Source of the DNA: a virus
Lineage: Duplodnaviria > Heunggongvirae > Uroviricota > Caudoviricetes
DNA length: 6,621 bases
Direction: 5' to 3' (one strand)
IMG/VR virus record: IMGVR_UViG_3300007747_000100
Shown: positions 1,730 through 6,621 of the stretch, piece by piece
How the letters are laid out: each line of letters opens with the position of its first letter
Position numbering within the stretch: the first letter of the stretch is position 1
Translations under genes and position numbers: made by a program
The notes under the pieces: model-generated
The model's database searches: none
The model's input: the letters and a program-made list of their open reading frames with translations, nothing else
Told to the model about the DNA's origin: nothing

Positions 1730-2358
1730 GTGGCAGCCTCCTTCAGATAGCAGGTTACGCTACCACCGGAAACGCCAATTTCGCTGGTGGTAGCCCAGAC
1801 AGGGTTGGCGTAACCGGCTCTGAAGGATACCGGCGCTTCCGAAGAAGCCCCCGCCTGAGCCACCATTGATTGACAAAGGCGCTGGATTATACACCAACGC
1901 CCAAAAAATGGGTGAGTCAGACCTACGACATAAAAAAAGACGCTCGGCGCGTCATATGTCGCCTTCAGAATTTTCAGGACGCCAATCCCGGCACCCGTTT
2001 TATGAGGTGCCTTATAACCATAAACCGTGTTGCCGCATAACGGCAAGCTCTTTTTTATGGACTCCGAAAACTCACTATTGGAAGTAACGTCACGCGCGTG
2101 GACGAAGGTTTTTGTGGAGTCACTACACGAGCAGAGAAAGCCATCTACGACCAGAAATTCTCTGGCATAGCCGCTGACCTTCTCAACGCTAACACCATCG
2201 ACCGTAATTTCTGACATAGTTAAGGCATCCGCTCCTACCACCAGCAAATGATAAACTTTGCTTGTATCTGCTGTATTAATGTCTGACTTTGCTGTCATAT
2301 TGCTGGATTTTGGCGACATACCAGCCAGTGAAAATGTCTTCTTCTGGACGGGTATCAT
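1730..2358 (-). CDS. hypothetical protein, 5' portion of the 344-aa track ORF; 3' end unresolved (possible frameshift/pseudogene or genuine overlap)
   Basis: ATG 2358..2356 overlaps the stop of the 59-aa ORF (ATGA), GGAGG with 7-nt spacer upstream. The frame stays open to 1324, but downstream of about 1730 the evidence favours two separate small genes. The other two minus frames have stops at 1765..1763 and 1757..1755, just upstream of the next gene's RBS. Contains terminator-like hairpins on both strands. Confidence 0.35.
1932..1953 (-). terminator. terminator-like hairpin plus T-run on the minus strand, inside the long ORF
   Basis: On the minus strand: GACGC / GCGTC stem (1939-1953 in plus coordinates) with a 5-nt loop, followed by seven T (plus-strand A-run 1932-1938). 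The same bases encode ...[10 protein letters not shown] in the ORF frame. Confidence 0.3.
2030..2056 (+). terminator. terminator-like hairpin plus T-run on the plus strand, inside the long minus-strand ORF
   Basis: Stem TTGCCG (2030-2035) / CGGCAA (2041-2046), loop CATAA, then GCTC and TTTTTT (2051-2056). Confidence 0.35.
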
Positions 2359-3372: not shown

Positions 3373-3678
3373 TTAGGCGGCGTTAAACGCGTCCGGGTAG
3401 AGTTTCAGAATGTCGGCAATTTCCTGCTGAGAAAGTCCGTTGTGATCATTTATGTTCGCAAGATGGTTAACATGAGTGATCACTTTCAGAACATCACCAC
3501 GGCAGGAGAAACGGTAGCGAAGGTGTGTTCCGATACCATCAGGATTCTTTTCGTCGATACGCTCCAGAGTGATTCCAAGCTGGCGTTCTAACTCTGTTGC
3601 ATAGTTACGACCAGAAGACAGACGGCAGTAGCGAAGAATGTCATTTTCTGTCCATCCCTCTATACCAGTACGCAGCAT
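3373..3678 (-). CDS. hypothetical protein, 101 aa
   Basis: Track ORF; ATG 3678, weak AAGAG upstream; 12-nt gap to the next gene; same strand and operon context as alpA. No family recognised. Confidence 0.6.
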   Translation of the reverse strand: MLRTGIEGWTENDILRYCRLSSGRNYATELERQLGITLERIDEKNPDGIGTHLRYRFSCRGDVLKVITHVNHLANINDHNGLSQQEIADILKLYPDAFNAA

Positions 3679-3690
3679 ATAGACTCTTAG

Positions 3691-3716
3691 CCGCCTGTAA
3701 TGGGCGGTTTTTCTTT
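3691..3716 (+). terminator. hairpin plus T-tract in the alpA-to-101-aa intergenic gap, terminator-like on the plus (antisense) strand
   Basis: CCGCC (3691-3695) / GGCGG (3702-3706) stem with a 7-nt loop, followed by TTTTTCTTTT (3707-3716). On the coding (minus) strand there is no U-run after the hairpin. Confidence 0.3.
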
Positions 3717-3720
3717 TCCA

Positions 3721-3939
3721 TCAGGCCACCTTCCCGCGGCGTTCTGCCAGCCAGTTATTAATTTCCACCGCATCAAACGCAGTCACGTTATCTGTTAGCT
3801 TCACTGGGCGTGGAAGAGTGCCATTTTTAACCCATCTATCAATAGTAGGCAGTGAAACACCTAGCAATTCCGGCATGCGAAAGCGACGGATGTATCCAGT
3901 TGTTGGGATAGCTGATGATGCTGGCTTGTGTGCTGTCAT
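3721..3939 (-). CDS. alpA: AlpA/Vis-family phage transcriptional regulator / excisionase-like HTH protein, 72 aa (start uncertain)
   Basis: Segment RMPELLGVSLPTIDRWVKNGTLPRPVKL matches the characteristic AlpA-family helix-turn-helix pattern (recalled family knowledge, so the symbol is family-level). The ATG at 3939 has only a weak SD and the 5' end carries TGATAGCT-type motifs, so the true start could be further downstream (e.g. Met22). Confidence 0.75.
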   Translation of the reverse strand: MTAHKPASSAIPTTGYIRRFRMPELLGVSLPTIDRWVKNGTLPRPVKLTDNVTAFDAVEINNWLAERRGKVA

Positions 3940-3956
3940 ATCTCTAGTAACCTCTC

Positions 3957-3969
3957 TGATAGCTCATGA
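3957..3969 (+). repeat. 13-mer TGATAGCTCATGA, copy 1 (alpA leader / 5' end)
   Basis: Exact 13-bp match to 6435-6447; contains the recurrent oriented 8-mer TGATAGCT. Confidence 0.5.
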
Positions 3970-4020
3970 AGTTACTTAAAGTTTAGTGGTTGCCCATACA
4001 GTATTTCTATTAAGACTAGA

Positions 4021-4052
4021 ATCTATTGAAAGAAATTATAAATCTATTGAAA
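4021..4052. promoter_or_regulatory. operator-like direct repeats ATCTATTGAAA (x2, 21 bp apart) flanking a minus-strand TATAAT; candidate promoter/operator of the alpA operon
   Basis: ATCTATTGAAA at 4021-4031 and 4042-4052. Between them the minus strand reads TATAAT (plus coordinates 4035-4040). No convincing -35 found; the A/T-rich upstream could act as an UP element. About 95 nt upstream of the alpA ATG. Confidence 0.3.
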
Positions 4053-4230
4053 AAATACCGATCCACTGAAAGATTGCAAATACAGGTGGGATAATTATTT
4101 TCTTTATTTTCAATTAGTTACCAGTTTAAAAAATCATTGTTTTATCAAAGAGTTATATCTTTCATCGTCATTCATCATGTTTTTACATTTCTTTTTATCT
4201 TTTATTATTCAATTGGTTGAGTCGGTTTAT

Positions 4231-4270
4231 AATGGCTCATGATGGCTTAAAATGGCTAATGATAGCTGGC
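4231..4270 (+). repeat. four tandem 10-bp repeats (aATGGCTcat / gATGGCTtaa / aATGGCTaat / gATAGCTggc), helically phased
   Basis: Direct reading: core (A/G)AT(G/A)GCT begins at 4231, 4241, 4251 and 4261, exactly 10 bp apart, in the AT-rich region between the 216-aa gene and alpA. Confidence 0.6.
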
Positions 4271-4410
4271 GTATCTTTTAGAGATGGGGTGATTACAGAT
4301 GAACTAAGCCGAACAGATATAGCAATGGCTAGGCATAGAATTATCTATGCTGGTGGAGATGGGTAAACAGGTAATGCCCCGCCATTGCTTTGGAGGGGCG
4401 TGAAAAGTGA

Positions 4411-5061
4411 TTAGTCGAGATCGTGGACAGCTAATAAAGCCCGTGAGATTTTTTCTAGGAATGTGGCTTTTGCTATTCCTTTATGGGATATCCCTTCATC
4501 CTTGATTAAGGTTTCTATGTCACGGTATATAGCTGTGCGATTAGGTTTCCCATTTTGGATGTAGGAAGATGAGCCTGATTTTTTTATCAGCAGATGTACT
4601 ATCAACCCCATCATTTTCATTGTCCCGTTTTCCTCATCCTGCTTTCTATGCTGCCCACGTCCGCTGCGGTTGGTTTCTTTGATGTAGTTTACTAACTGGA
4701 GTCCTCCAAGGTTTCGGGCTTTTTCTTCCCAGCCCTTGGTGCCACGCAAATCATCAATCGCTTCTGATATTTTCTGAACAATTATTTCTGGTGTATTTGT
4801 GTCAATAAATGGGTAAGAAGCTAAGAAAATATCAAGGGCATGGCAAGGCTCGTCTTTACTAGTTTTTTCACCTCTGTACACCTTGATAGCTCTGGCAAGA
4901 TGAGTTCTGACAAAATCGACATATTCGAAATTTTCCTCAGGCACATCGCTAATGCGCATAGATGGGTTTAGGCCAGCCAAGGCCACAGCCATTTCATGAG
5001 GGGTAATCGATACAGATGAACAAAGCCGTTCGATTGGCGATTTTCTCAAGATGTTGTTCAC
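4411..5061 (-). CDS. hypothetical protein, 216 aa, unknown function; integrase-coupled accessory gene
   Basis: GTG start 5061..5059 overlaps the integrase stop (GTGA) and is preceded by GGAGG with a 5-nt spacer. Long open frame, and visibly more AT-rich than the integrase gene by eye. No conserved motif recognised (no Walker A, no clear transmembrane segment). Confidence 0.7.
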   Translation of the reverse strand: MNNILRKSPIERLCSSVSITPHEMAVALAGLNPSMRISDVPEENFEYVDFVRTHLARAIKVYRGEKTSKDEPCHALDIFLASYPFIDTNTPEIIVQKISEAIDDLRGTKGWEEKARNLGGLQLVNYIKETNRSGRGQHRKQDEENGTMKMMGLIVHLLIKKSGSSSYIQNGKPNRTAIYRDIETLIKDEGISHKGIAKATFLEKISRALLAVHDLD

Positions 5062-6326
5062 ATTTGCCTCCGGGCTTTATCGAATGGCGTTACGTTGTAG
5101 TCTTTCCCGCTTTCCAGTGCCACCAGCAGATCAGCCCACTGTGCCAGCGCAGCTTTACGCTCATCAAAATACTGATGGCGGTTATAAATCCCCTCCACAC
5201 CCTTAATGCGATGATTGAGGCATCGTTCCGCTACGACAGGATCAACACCCAATGCTGCTAAATGAGTACGTGCGGTACGCCGGAAGTCGTGAATCGTGAA
5301 ATTAGGCACATCCGGCATTTCGGCGCGAACCTTAGCCAGTGCTACGGGTAAAGTGCTTTCCTGAATATGTGGGATCATTCTGTTTTGCATCTTCCTGGCT
5401 GGAAGCACCCATGCGCTATTACATGAAAAGGTGTGTAGCTCTCTCAACCATTCAACGGCTGGGGAAGGTAGAGGTATATCAATAGGGTCTCCGTTTTTGC
5501 TGCGTTCTTCCGGCAAATGCCATACCGCACCATCTAAATCAAACTCTTCCCATCGTGCGGCGCATAACTCCATCTTACGAACGCATAGTGCCAGCAATAG
5601 CTTAAATGTCAGTTCGTTCTGGCGGCTGAATCCTTTTGCGGTGCGCATAGCCTCGAATAGCCTGATAAGCTCATCGCGAGTTAGCCAACGGTCGCGGGAA
5701 ACCTCTTTACCACCAGCATCAGATACTTCAAACGCTGAACAAGGGTTTATCTCCAGAGCGTGGCGTTTTATCCCATAGTCAAAGATACGGCGTGCCCAGC
5801 GTAATACATCTGTTGCTATCGTTGGTGCTCCTCGGTCAACGATACCTTTCAACATGTCGTCAATGTGGCGTGGCTTAACGTCCTCTACCTTCATATGCCC
5901 AATGCAGGGGTTAATATCCTTATCAATTCTCCGGCGAAGGATATCGGGATGTTTCCATCTCGGAAGTATCTGGCGCTCGAAGTATTCGGAGGCCAGATCT
6001 GAAACACGCATGGCGTTTTTCTCAGCCTCCATTTTTGCCAGTGCTTCAGCTTTTCGTTCCTGTTTCTCTGCTGCTACGTCATAGCCAAGAGCAACTCTGG
6101 CTGACAGCTCTTTTGCTGTTTCTCTGGCTTTTGATAGTGACAGTTCGGAGTAAGAGCCTATAACCATAGCCCGCTGCTTTCCTGCGAGCTTATAGCGGAA
6201 TCGCCAGAACGGGACTGTGTAGTTTTTGGGGTAGCAAATATAAAGGCCGTTGCCGTCTGCCTTGCCATCAAATCTGTCTCCCGCCTTTATCCATGCGCGG
6301 ATCTGCATATCTGTGAGTTTTGGCAT
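5058..6326 (-). CDS. int: tyrosine site-specific integrase, P4-like family (about 422 aa)
   Basis: N-terminus MPKLTDMQIRAWIKAG...DGNGLYI matches the arm-binding N-terminal domain typical of P4-type integrases. The C-terminal region has the tyrosine-recombinase hallmarks (HDFRRTARTH; GIYNRHQY with the presumed catalytic Tyr). Start trimmed from the track's 6410 to the ATG at 6326..6324. Confidence 0.9.
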   Translation of the reverse strand: MPKLTDMQIRAWIKAGDRFDGKADGNGLYICYPKNYTVPFWRFRYKLAGKQRAMVIGSYSELSLSKARETAKELSARVALGYDVAAEKQERKAEALAKMEAEKNAMRVSDLASEYFERQILPRWKHPDILRRRIDKDINPCIGHMKVEDVKPRHIDDMLKGIVDRGAPTIATDVLRWARRIFDYGIKRHALEINPCSAFEVSDAGGKEVSRDRWLTRDELIRLFEAMRTAKGFSRQNELTFKLLLALCVRKMELCAARWEEFDLDGAVWHLPEERSKNGDPIDIPLPSPAVEWLRELHTFSCNSAWVLPARKMQNRMIPHIQESTLPVALAKVRAEMPDVPNFTIHDFRRTARTHLAALGVDPVVAERCLNHRIKGVEGIYNRHQYFDERKAALAQWADLLVALESGKDYNVTPFDKARRQM

Positions 6327-6355
6327 TGCGAATACCTGAATATCGAATATGGGGG

Positions 6356-6405
6356 TGTACATAAAGCAATGTACATGAAAGTCATTATGTACACCTCTAT
6401 GTACA
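6356..6405. promoter_or_regulatory. four TGTACA hexamers immediately upstream of the integrase start (candidate regulator or arm-type binding sites)
   Basis: TGTACA at 6356-6361, 6370-6375, 6388-6393 and 6400-6405, mostly in the context ATGTACA(C/T), within 80 bp upstream of the int ATG at 6326. Confidence 0.45.
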
Positions 6406-6434
6406 CGCATATTGTGCGCTTTGTTGCGTTGTTA

Positions 6435-6447
6435 TGATAGCTCATGA
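6435..6447 (+). repeat. 13-mer TGATAGCTCATGA, copy 2 (between the int upstream region and the junction terminator); candidate att or arm-type site
   Basis: Exact 13-bp direct repeat of 3957-3969. A further TGATAGCT lies at 6508-6515, overlapping the stop codon of the flanking gene. Confidence 0.45.
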
Positions 6448-6451
6448 TAAC

Positions 6452-6488
6452 AAAAAAGCCCGACATTTCGCGGGCTTTGTGGTTTTTT
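6452..6488. terminator. bidirectional rho-independent terminator
   Basis: GC-rich stem GCCCG (6458-6462) / CGGGC (6471-6475), extendable to AAAGCCCG/CGGGCTTT, with an 8-nt loop. It is flanked by an A-run (6452-6457) and a T-run (6483-6488), so it reads as hairpin plus U-tract on either strand. Confidence 0.6.
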
Positions 6489-6514
6489 GCTGCTTGGTGA
6501 TTTTTACTGATAGC

Positions 6515-6621
6515 TTATTCGATATTCTGAATCTGCTCGCGCATCTGCTCAATCAACACTTTCAGCTCGATGGCAGAATTCGTCACTTCGGCATTGATAG
6601 ATTTCGAAGCAAGAGTGTTCG
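6515..6621 (-). CDS. 3' end of an unidentified, presumably chromosomal gene (partial)
   Basis: Minus-strand frame open from the window edge to TAA at 6517..6515 (C-terminus ...INAEVTNSAIELKVLIEQMREQIQNIE), followed downstream by the hairpin terminator. Product not recognised. Confidence 0.5.
   Translation of the reverse strand, partial: NTLASKSINAEVTNSAIELKVLIEQMREQIQNIE

What the first reader, a model, noticed from the sequence alone, without database searches (positions are those of the whole stretch)
4411..5061. AT-rich 216-aa gene of unknown function, translationally coupled to the integrase, in the int-alpA slot: candidate novel accessory/defence cargo
The gene starts with GTG overlapping the integrase stop (GTGA) behind a GGAGG Shine-Dalgarno, so it is almost certainly co-expressed with int. 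Its composition is visibly more AT-rich than the integrase and the downstream operon, suggesting separate acquisition. It sits between the integrase and the AlpA regulator, a position where satellites and islands tend to carry variable accessory genes, including anti-phage systems (general knowledge of such hotspots, applied here by analogy). I recognise no domain; the tract RSGRGQH fits the minimal HEPN-like R-x(4-6)-H pattern, but that short pattern is weak evidence. It also contains a copy of the TGATAGCT and CCTCT-TGTACAC motif pair otherwise found upstream of int.
Basis: partly seen in the sequence, partly recalled or inferred. Interest (0 to 1): 0.7.

Follow-up and report, generated by a model that had tools for sequence, protein, structure and literature searches.

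The report
Integrase-overlapping gene of a phage satellite
The 216-codon gene is real and is read together with the integrase of an E. coli phage satellite, but it looks like an old partner of that integrase that probably helps control cutting-out of the island, not a recently acquired anti-phage weapon.

Summary
A 216-aa gene lies on the minus strand at 4411-5061. Its GTG start overlaps the integrase stop (GTGA) and a GGAGG sits 5 nt upstream. Its GC is 42.5% against 48.9% for int, and it lies between int and alpA of an EcCIMP1-like satellite inserted right after yicC.

The slot is swappable: islands whose int is 96-98% identical (a fourth, 87%) carry four other genes there. But ORF216 is not recent cargo. 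In 9 of 9 loci across Enterobacterales, homologs overlap or abut int, and a 357-590-nt gap follows before alpA. Identities compared in six loci show the ORF diverging in step with int (both about 27% between the two clades). It is under purifying selection and is AT-richer than int in all six loci measured.

The HEPN idea fails: R132 is not conserved and H138 is sometimes Y. No defence, Pfam or structural match exists.

The closest precedent is iolg, the integrase-overlapping gene of Vibrio PICMI satellites, reported as needed for excision. ORF216 fits that class by position, not by sequence. Every gap behind a family member carries ~10-nt phased repeat arrays, and six inspected also carry three conserved sites near alpA. 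Islands with the other genes lack both, which suggests a DNA-binding accessory factor.

The parts
4411..5061 (-). ORF216 (WP_001059729.1): an integrase-overlapping gene of the iolg class. It encodes a 216-aa all-helical protein with an N-terminal domain, a 52-residue central helix carrying the invariant R135-G136-x-(H/Y)-R-K140-x-D-E143 motif, and a C-terminal helix-turn-helix-like end.
5058..5072 (-). Translational-coupling junction: GGAGG (5072-5068), a 5-nt spacer, then GTG (5061-5059) overlapping the int stop TGA (5060-5058).
   Evidence: Homologs show ATGA, GTGA or TAATG overlaps, or a 4-nt gap, in all 9 loci.
5058..6326 (-). P4-type tyrosine integrase (Arm-DNA-bind_3 + Phage_int_M + Phage_integrase). 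Homology with alternate-carrying islands resumes at 5086 (5082 in L008), about 25 nt before the int stop.
3940..4410 (-). A 471-nt gap of 34% GC that travels with ORF216 and is replaced together with it. It contains the two repeat sets listed below and the alpA leader.
4224..4268 (-). Helically phased direct repeats: AGCCAT every 10 nt in gene direction, about 4 units. Period-9/10 arrays occur in all 9 gaps behind family members, and their sequences differ between loci.
4003..4073 (-). Three sites spaced 20-21 nt apart (4021-4033, 4042-4054, 4061-4073), with a possible fourth at 4003-4015. The consensus TTTCAAWRGAWT is conserved in both clades of the family. It is absent from islands carrying alternates, including the one with the same AlpA protein.
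3721..3939 (-). alpA (AlpA/HTH_17), the master activator and excisionase-like gene of Gram-negative satellites.
   Evidence: literature
3957..3964 (-). AGCTATCA (TGATAGCT on the + strand) in the alpA leader, 18 nt before the ATG. It is retained in L006, which encodes the same AlpA protein.
4873..4891 (-). Copy inside the ORF of AGCTATCA next to GTGTACAGAGG, the motif pair also found upstream of int. It is specific to this island type and its function is unknown.
6327..6514 (-). Left end of the island and the int upstream region. The island begins immediately after the yicC stop (6515-6517). AGCTATCA at 6508-6515 and 6435-6442 flanks a terminator hairpin (6455-6478), and four TGTACA(T/C) repeats (6355-6406) precede the int start.

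Best explanation
ORF216 is an enterobacterial member of the positional class called iolg (integrase-overlapping gene), described in Vibrio PICMI satellites. It is a long-standing partner gene of the P4-type integrase in the integration module of an EcCIMP1-like phage satellite at yicC. Shown: it is translated from a start that overlaps the int stop. It has kept this arrangement and diverged in step with int across Enterobacterales. It is under purifying selection. It is always followed by a long AT-rich region with 10-nt phased repeats, and the six gaps inspected also carry three conserved sites upstream of alpA. Inferred: it is made constitutively with Int in the integrated state. It oligomerises through its long central helix and binds DNA through its C-terminal helix-turn-helix-like end and its basic RG-HRK patch. 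It acts with Int and the phage-induced AlpA to permit excision or induction of the island, as reported for PICMI115 iolg. The adjacent repeats are its likely binding platform.
For: Position and coupling. Same arrangement in 9 of 9 loci with different attachment sites and downstream modules. Divergence in step with int in six loci, in two clades (int 24-28% and ORF 27-32% between clades; int 54-89% and ORF 51-71% within). Purifying selection like int. Satellite identity: int, alpA, antA, ash with C4/isrK RNAs, DUF5906 primase, ejection-protein genes, resembling EcCIMP1. Published precedent: an iolg deletion abolishes PICMI115 excision, packaging and transfer, and 21 of 35 PICMI subfamilies have an iolg overlapping int by 1, 4 or 13 nt, in 13 unrelated families. 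Relatives sharing only the C-terminal ~70 aa also sit between int and an AlpA/HTH_17 gene (P0104, P0101, P0091). Phased arrays in all 9 gaps (p<=0.01 each), about 15-fold denser than outside. Arrays and triple sites are absent when ORF216 is replaced, even with the same AlpA protein. Weak, recurrent AlpA/HTH-like signal at the C-terminus.
Against: No experiment on this family exists. It has no sequence homology to the two Vibrio PICMI-type iolg genes I could retrieve (E>0.3). The PICMI iolg deletion was complemented only with int and iolg together, so that evidence is itself incomplete. Nearly identical integrases (96-98%) work beside unrelated genes in the same slot, so Int cannot need ORF216 specifically unless the alternates substitute for it. 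The repeats lie about 2 kb from the attachment site, which is far for an excision complex. The HTH assignment is below threshold and no fold neighbour supports it. PICMI iolg genes and the remote relatives have only 75-115-nt gaps before alpA, without long arrays.
Confidence: 0.45

Rival explanations
1. Anti-phage or other accessory cargo in the 5' hotspot of the satellite. The gene would be expressed with int in the quiescent island and protect the host or the island from competing phages by an unknown, non-enzymatic mechanism.
For: The slot is swapped among islands with 96-98% identical int (a fourth, 87%): four alternates, all low GC. They are frequent in E. coli (77, 38 and 24 genomes for three of them, against 203 for ORF216). 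PICIs are reported to carry immune systems at their 5' or 3' ends. EcCIMP1 has an accessory ORF in the same slot and gives superinfection immunity. CP4-57 has an unrelated gene, yfjH, there. Co-expression with int would suit a gene active in the integrated state.
Against: There are no PADLOC, Pfam or NCBIfam hits. The HEPN motif is not conserved. There is no effector-like domain or fold neighbour. The strict int-coupled synteny and divergence in step with int over the whole family are not how hotspot cargo behaves. In PICMI115 the defence gene was up2 at the other end, while the int-overlapping gene was needed for excision.
Confidence: 0.2
2. Gatekeeper of induction. ORF216 would be a DNA-binding regulator, functionally Stl-like, that occupies the repeats upstream of alpA and keeps the master activator silent until a helper-phage signal arrives. 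The swappable slot proteins would set helper specificity.
For: The arrays and the three conserved sites lie between ORF216 and alpA in the family loci examined, and vanish with ORF216 even when AlpA is the same protein. The conserved sites parallel the conserved C-terminal HTH-like segment, whereas AlpA is unrecognisably different between the clades. No clear terminator follows ORF216, so something must stop int read-through from reaching alpA. In EcCIMP1 the 449 bp upstream of alpA confer helper-specific induction. The alternates have a conserved N-terminal segment that I read by eye as Xis/HTH_17-like.
Against: DNA binding is unproven. Published work describes activation of alpA by the helper, with no repressor known in Gram-negative PICIs. 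Islands with alternates or with no slot gene still have to control alpA. The island also carries P4-type C4/isrK immunity RNAs, which may already provide repression.
Confidence: 0.2
3. The repeats in the gap are a second replication element (crr-like) bound by the primase, and ORF216 is merely a linked passenger with no role in it.
For: In L005 the gap repeat TGTTCATC resembles the TGTTCAC(C) iterons clustered downstream of the primase. Iterons next to an AT-rich stretch are typical of origins.
Against: In the window's own island the iterons downstream of the primase are GTGGTACAG-type and unrelated to the AGCCAT array. Islands with alternates lack the arrays, although the antA-to-ash segment that could be compared is 94-99% identical; their primases were not fetched.
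Confidence: 0.05

Closest known systems
iolg (integrase overlapping gene) of PICMI satellites, Vibrio chagasii PICMI115 (Nat Commun 2024, PMC10803314)
   Same: It lies between int and alpA on the same strand, its start overlaps the int stop by 4 nt, the integrase is P4-type with an arm-binding domain, the element has an int-alpA-primase core, and the function was unknown from sequence. The class is explicitly made of many unrelated families, with contiguous (icg) and empty variants, which matches what I see at the E. coli yicC site.
   Different: There is no detectable sequence similarity to the two Vibrio iolg genes retrieved (195 and 160 aa). The host satellites here are larger PICI and cf-PICI elements of Enterobacterales. 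ORF216 is followed by a 357-590-nt repeat-rich region, whereas the Vibrio loci have 75-109 nt before alpA. The excision requirement is shown only for PICMI115.
5' accessory/immune region of PICIs (cited in PMC11364771) and EcCIMP1_002 in EcCIMP1 (PMC11773190)
   Same: It occupies the same slot next to int in the same kind of satellite. The slot content differs between closely related islands.
   Different: ORF216 is not sporadic. It is int-coupled and has diverged in step with int across an order of bacteria, and it has no defence-type domain. EcCIMP1_002 is described as a much smaller protein (about 10% the size of UvrB) of a different kind.
SaPI Stl master repressors
   Same: They are encoded next to int, expressed in the quiescent island, and highly diverse between islands. 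This is a functional analogy only.
   Different: Stl is divergently transcribed from the genes it represses and has recognisable DNA-binding domains. There is no homology, and no repression has been shown here.
Cox/Xis/Vis/AlpA-type directionality factors that bind helically phased direct repeats (my recollection of P2 Cox and P4 Vis, not checked here)
   Same: Phased ~10-nt direct repeats lie upstream of an alpA/vis-like gene, and the C-terminus shows a weak AlpA-like HTH signal.
   Different: ORF216 is 216 aa with a long coiled helix, not a roughly 70-90-aa winged helix. Its Pfam matches are far below threshold.
YfjH of prophage CP4-57 (E. coli K-12), the gene between intA and alpA
   Same: It occupies the int-alpA slot of the element that gave AlpA its name, and its function is unknown.
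   Different: It is on the opposite strand and unrelated in sequence to ORF216 and to the alternates.

Membership tests
iolg class (integrase-overlapping gene of phage satellites) | Gene between int and alpA, same orientation | tested here: met
   The same holds in 9 of 9 loci of the family.
iolg class (integrase-overlapping gene of phage satellites) | Start codon overlaps the int stop (1, 4 or 13 nt; ATGA most common) | tested here: met
   GTGA in the window. Homologs show ATGA, GTGA or TAATG, and two have a 4-nt gap.
iolg class (integrase-overlapping gene of phage satellites) | The host element is a satellite with an int-alpA-primase core | tested here: met
   L001 has int, alpA, antA, ash, a DUF5906 primase and ejection-protein genes, plus C4/isrK RNAs. 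vB_KppS-Ant carries its own capsid and packaging genes.
iolg class (integrase-overlapping gene of phage satellites) | Required for helper-induced excision | not testable with these tools
   Shown only for PICMI115. It needs a deletion and complementation experiment.
iolg class (integrase-overlapping gene of phage satellites) | Sequence homology to a Vibrio IOLG family (not a defining feature, since the class holds 13 unrelated families) | tested here: not met
   hmmsearch of the A1, A2 and A4 profiles against the iolg genes of L027 and L028 gave E>0.3 and scores near 0.
phrog_30524 (unknown function) | Full-length profile match | tested here: met
   E=3e-34, residues 11-209 against profile positions 14-213 of 220.
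HEPN nucleases | Conserved R-x(4-6)-H catalytic motif | tested here: not met
   R132 is S/K/R and H138 is Y in some members. The invariant residues are R135, G136, K140 and E143.
HEPN nucleases | HEPN helical fold | tested here: not met
Known anti-phage defence systems (PADLOC-DB 2.0) | Match to any defence-protein model | tested here: not met
   0 families at E<=1 for ORF216 and for its distant homolog.
Variable hotspot cargo of PICIs | Slot content differs between closely related islands | tested here: met
   Four alternates sit beside int that is 96-98% identical in three islands and 87% in the fourth.
Variable hotspot cargo of PICIs | Gene is sporadic and unlinked to the phylogeny of the core genes | tested here: not met
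   The ORF identity matrix mirrors the int matrix in both clades.
AlpA / HTH_17 / excisionase-type DNA-binding proteins | Domain match above the Pfam threshold | tested here: not met
   Only sub-threshold hits, in 3 of 38 members (best E 0.012), at the C-terminal GLSKSTIYKKI segment.

The most novel reading that the evidence does not exclude
The int-alpA slot of Gram-negative satellites would hold a swappable specificity module. It would consist of a fast-evolving protein (ORF216 or one of its alternates) plus, in the ORF216 type, its own array of phased DNA sites. This module would gate alpA and excision, and so decide which helper phage can wake the island. That would be the missing Stl-like sensor of Gram-negative PICIs.
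Probability: 0.15. Interest if true: 0.8.

Novelty: new variant of a known kind. Interest (0 to 1): 0.5.

Why it matters
How Gram-negative satellites sense a helper phage, and how Int, AlpA and the int-overlapping protein cooperate in excision, are stated open questions. This family puts that question into E. coli. The gene is in 203 of 5,426 complete genomes, including EHEC strains, and sits in PICIs and capsid-forming PICIs across Enterobacterales. It comes with a defined, testable DNA element next to it, and with natural swap variants in which int is nearly identical. It also warns against reading every variable gene next to a satellite integrase as a defence candidate.

Tried and rejected
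HEPN: rejected by alignment and fold searches.
Pfam, NCBIfam and PADLOC, plus PDB sequence searches with the single sequence and with a profile: nothing.
The afdb50 fold library was unavailable.
Homology between ORF216 and the E. coli alternates: the same register is found every time (RG-HRK-DEE helix against ERHA-NRE helix), but it is not significant, with P about 0.11.
P0104 as a chimera of the alternate-type N-terminus and the ORF216-type C-terminus: only suggestive, P about 0.005.
YfjH of CP4-57: unrelated.
Gap repeats as extra primase iterons: rejected for the window's island, where the iterons downstream of the primase are GTGGTACAG.
The dispersed AGCTATCA motif as a general family feature: not found in the other loci.
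Rfam: nothing in the gap.
The promoter and terminator scan was no better than shuffles.
The search for related loci with the whole-family alignment failed for lack of a conserved stretch.
The Fillol-Salom 2022 Cell paper is not held.
The PICMI supplements contain no IOLG sequences, so I fetched PICMI-type loci through the PICMI115 AlpA sequence instead.

Full report
**Observation.** The ORF at 4411..5061 lies on the minus strand and encodes 216 aa from a GTG start. In gene direction the junction reads GGAGGCAAATGTGAAC. The GTG (5061-5059) overlaps the integrase stop TGA (5060-5058), and GGAGG lies 5 nt upstream. GC is 42.5%, against 48.9% for int and 49-50% for alpA, antA and ash. RSGRGQH is at residues 132-138. 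The motif copy inside the ORF is real: TGATAGCT occurs five times in the window, always on the + strand, and TGTACAC occurs four times. The gene is genuine. It matches phrog_30524 over its full length (3e-34). It has homologs of about 216 aa across Enterobacterales. Its AlphaFold model is confident (pLDDT 87.4). Its non-synonymous to synonymous ratio is 0.25-0.34 with saturated synonymous sites, much like int.

**Context.** The window matches E. coli PA45B at 100% over 3700-6450. There the element reads yicC | int | ORF216 | alpA | PM1773-family | antA/B | DUF4222 | ash | small ORFs | DUF5906 primase | ... ejection-protein genes. P4-type C4 and isrK RNAs lie inside the ash gene. This is the architecture of EcCIMP1, a PICI that a P22-like helper has been shown to mobilise. 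Comparison with the empty site in K-12 shows that the island begins immediately after the yicC stop codon.

**Is the slot variable?** Yes. Three islands at the same site carry int that is 96-98% identical but hold different genes of 321, 281 and 293 aa, and a fourth with 87%-identical int holds a 316-aa gene. All four genes have 35-41% GC. Homology resumes at window 5086 (5082 in the 87% island), about 25 nt before the int stop. On the alpA side it ends at about 3909-3911 in three islands and at 3975 in L006. So ORF216 and the 471-nt gap behind it are exchanged as one unit. In 5,426 complete E. coli genomes, ORF216 is the commonest occupant. It is in 203 genomes, in two discrete alleles: at least 99% identical in 114 records and about 69% in 91 records, including EHEC strains. 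The alternates are in 77, 38 and 24 genomes. CP4-57 carries an unrelated gene, yfjH, on the opposite strand in its int-alpA slot.

**Is ORF216 recent cargo?** No. I examined nine loci: E. coli (two alleles), Buttiauxella, Yersinia, Proteus, Rahnella, Pectobacterium, Providencia and the capsid-forming element vB_KppS-Ant. In all nine, the homolog overlaps the int stop (ATGA, GTGA or TAATG) or starts 4 nt after it. A 357-590-nt gap follows, and then alpA. This holds although attachment sites and downstream modules differ. I compared identities in six of these loci. The ORF matrix mirrors the int matrix. Between the two clades, int is 24-28% identical and the ORF 27-32%. Within clades, int is 54-89% and the ORF 51-71%. 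AlpA is unrecognisable between the clades. In each of the six loci the ORF is AT-richer than its int and the gap is low in GC (28-40%), so low GC is a family trait.

**What the protein looks like.**
- The model is all-helical. It has an N-terminal domain, a 52-residue helix (111-162), a short hairpin and two C-terminal helices.
- The invariant residues include R135, G136, K140 and E143. They sit in the only low-confidence stretch of the model.
- R132 and H138, which an R-x5-H motif would need, are not conserved.
- The only recurring domain signal is a sub-threshold AlpA/HTH-like match at the C-terminal GLSKSTIYKKI segment.
- The family is small, with 64 representatives among 1.84 billion proteins.
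- The weakest hits share only the C-terminal ~70 residues, joined to other N-termini. Where context could be read, three of them (P0104, P0101, P0091) again lie between an integrase and an AlpA/HTH_17 gene, and a fourth (P0097) lies about 1.7 kb downstream of an integrase.
- The E. coli alternates form a separate family. The resemblance of their C-terminal helix to that of ORF216 is not significant.

**The DNA that travels with the gene.**
- All nine gaps contain direct repeats with a period of 9-10 nt, and the repeat sequences differ between loci. Lag 10 (lag 9 in one gap) is the strongest self-similarity lag in 8 of the 9 gaps and second to lag 20 in the window's own gap. Each is significant against shuffles (p<=0.01). 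TRF finds about 20 such arrays in 4.5 kb of gaps, against about 25 in 88 kb outside.
- In the six gaps I inspected by eye, three sites spaced 20-21 nt apart lie closer to alpA (TTTCAAWRGAWT; window 4021-4073). They are conserved in both clades.
- Neither element is present in islands carrying the alternates, even in L006, which encodes the same AlpA protein. There each alternate has its own terminator hairpin and a short leader.
- The arrays are not primase iterons in this island. The iterons downstream of its primase are GTGGTACAG.

**Precedent.** In Vibrio PICMI satellites, a gene overlapping int by ATGA, lying between int and alpA, was named iolg. Its deletion abolished helper-induced excision, packaging and transduction. 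The authors propose that Int and IOLG are made constitutively, that AlpA is phage-induced, and that the three form the excision complex. In that study 21 of 35 subfamilies have an iolg, four have a contiguous gene and three have none, and these genes fall into 13 unrelated families. No later work on it is held in the library. I used the PICMI115 AlpA sequence from the supplement to fetch two PICMI-type Vibrio loci. Their int-overlapping genes (195 and 160 aa) show no similarity to ORF216 or to the alternates. ORF216 therefore belongs to the class by position and coupling, not by homology. It differs in its long, repeat-rich downstream region.

**Conclusion.** The most likely reading is an int-coupled accessory factor of the integration and induction module. 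It probably binds DNA and acts with Int and AlpA, and the adjacent repeats are its candidate platform (0.45). Two rivals remain open at about 0.2 each. One is a gatekeeper that silences alpA until a helper signal arrives. All mechanistic steps are inferred. What is shown is the anatomy, the conservation, the divergence in step with int, the module-wise replacement and the absence of any known domain.

Noticed in passing
window 1783-1870 and 1933-2010, minus strand: C4 antisense RNA (79.9 bits, E 5e-15) and isrK (67.8 bits, E 2.5e-13) lie inside the ash-family gene. This is a P4-type immunity RNA and its target region, so the satellite probably uses P4-like RNA immunity.
   Followed up: partly
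window 3957, 4260, 4884, 6435, 6508 (+ strand): TGATAGCT occurs five times, always on the same strand: in the alpA leader, in the gap, inside ORF216, and twice at the island's left end flanking a terminator hairpin. It is retained in the alpA leader of L006, which has the same AlpA protein. No analogous dispersed 8-mer is seen in other family loci. It is a candidate AlpA or Int arm-type site.
   Followed up: partly
window 6355-6406: Four TGTACA(T/C) repeats lie within about 50 nt just upstream of the annotated int start (6326). A related GTGTACAGAGG sits next to the in-ORF AGCTATCA copy at 4873-4891.
   Followed up: partly
window 3686/3687: The window is 100% identical to E. coli PA45B on both sides of this point but lacks 83 nt present there (L001 11905-11987). 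The missing stretch is inside the 'PM1773 family' gene that starts at the alpA stop, so that gene is frameshifted here. The 101-aa ORF at 3373-3678 is its remnant.
   Followed up: partly
L003 3306-3400, L004 3184-3278, L006 2728-2820 (between int and the alternate genes): The ~95-nt spacer after int in alternate-carrying islands holds a hairpin whose arms differ between islands by compensatory changes (GATTGAGCC/GGCTCAATC against GACCGGAAC/GTTCCGGTC) around a conserved loop. This suggests a structured RNA or DNA element.
   Followed up: no
L001 4642-4660 and 5752-5855; L005 11721-11943: Putative origins lie downstream of the primases. The window's island type has GTGGTACAG/CTGTACCAC iterons. 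vB_KppS-Ant has about 10 copies of TGTTCAC(C), the P4 alpha-protein iteron as I recall it.
   Followed up: partly
window 5058-6410: The mechanical int ORF extends 84 nt upstream of the annotated start (6326). The extension overlaps the TGTACA repeats and is probably not translated.
   Followed up: no
L007 (E. coli MDR_56): This is a degraded copy of the island. ORF216 is cut after about 70 codons by an IS1203 insertion, and the alpA-to-primase region is missing.
   Followed up: no
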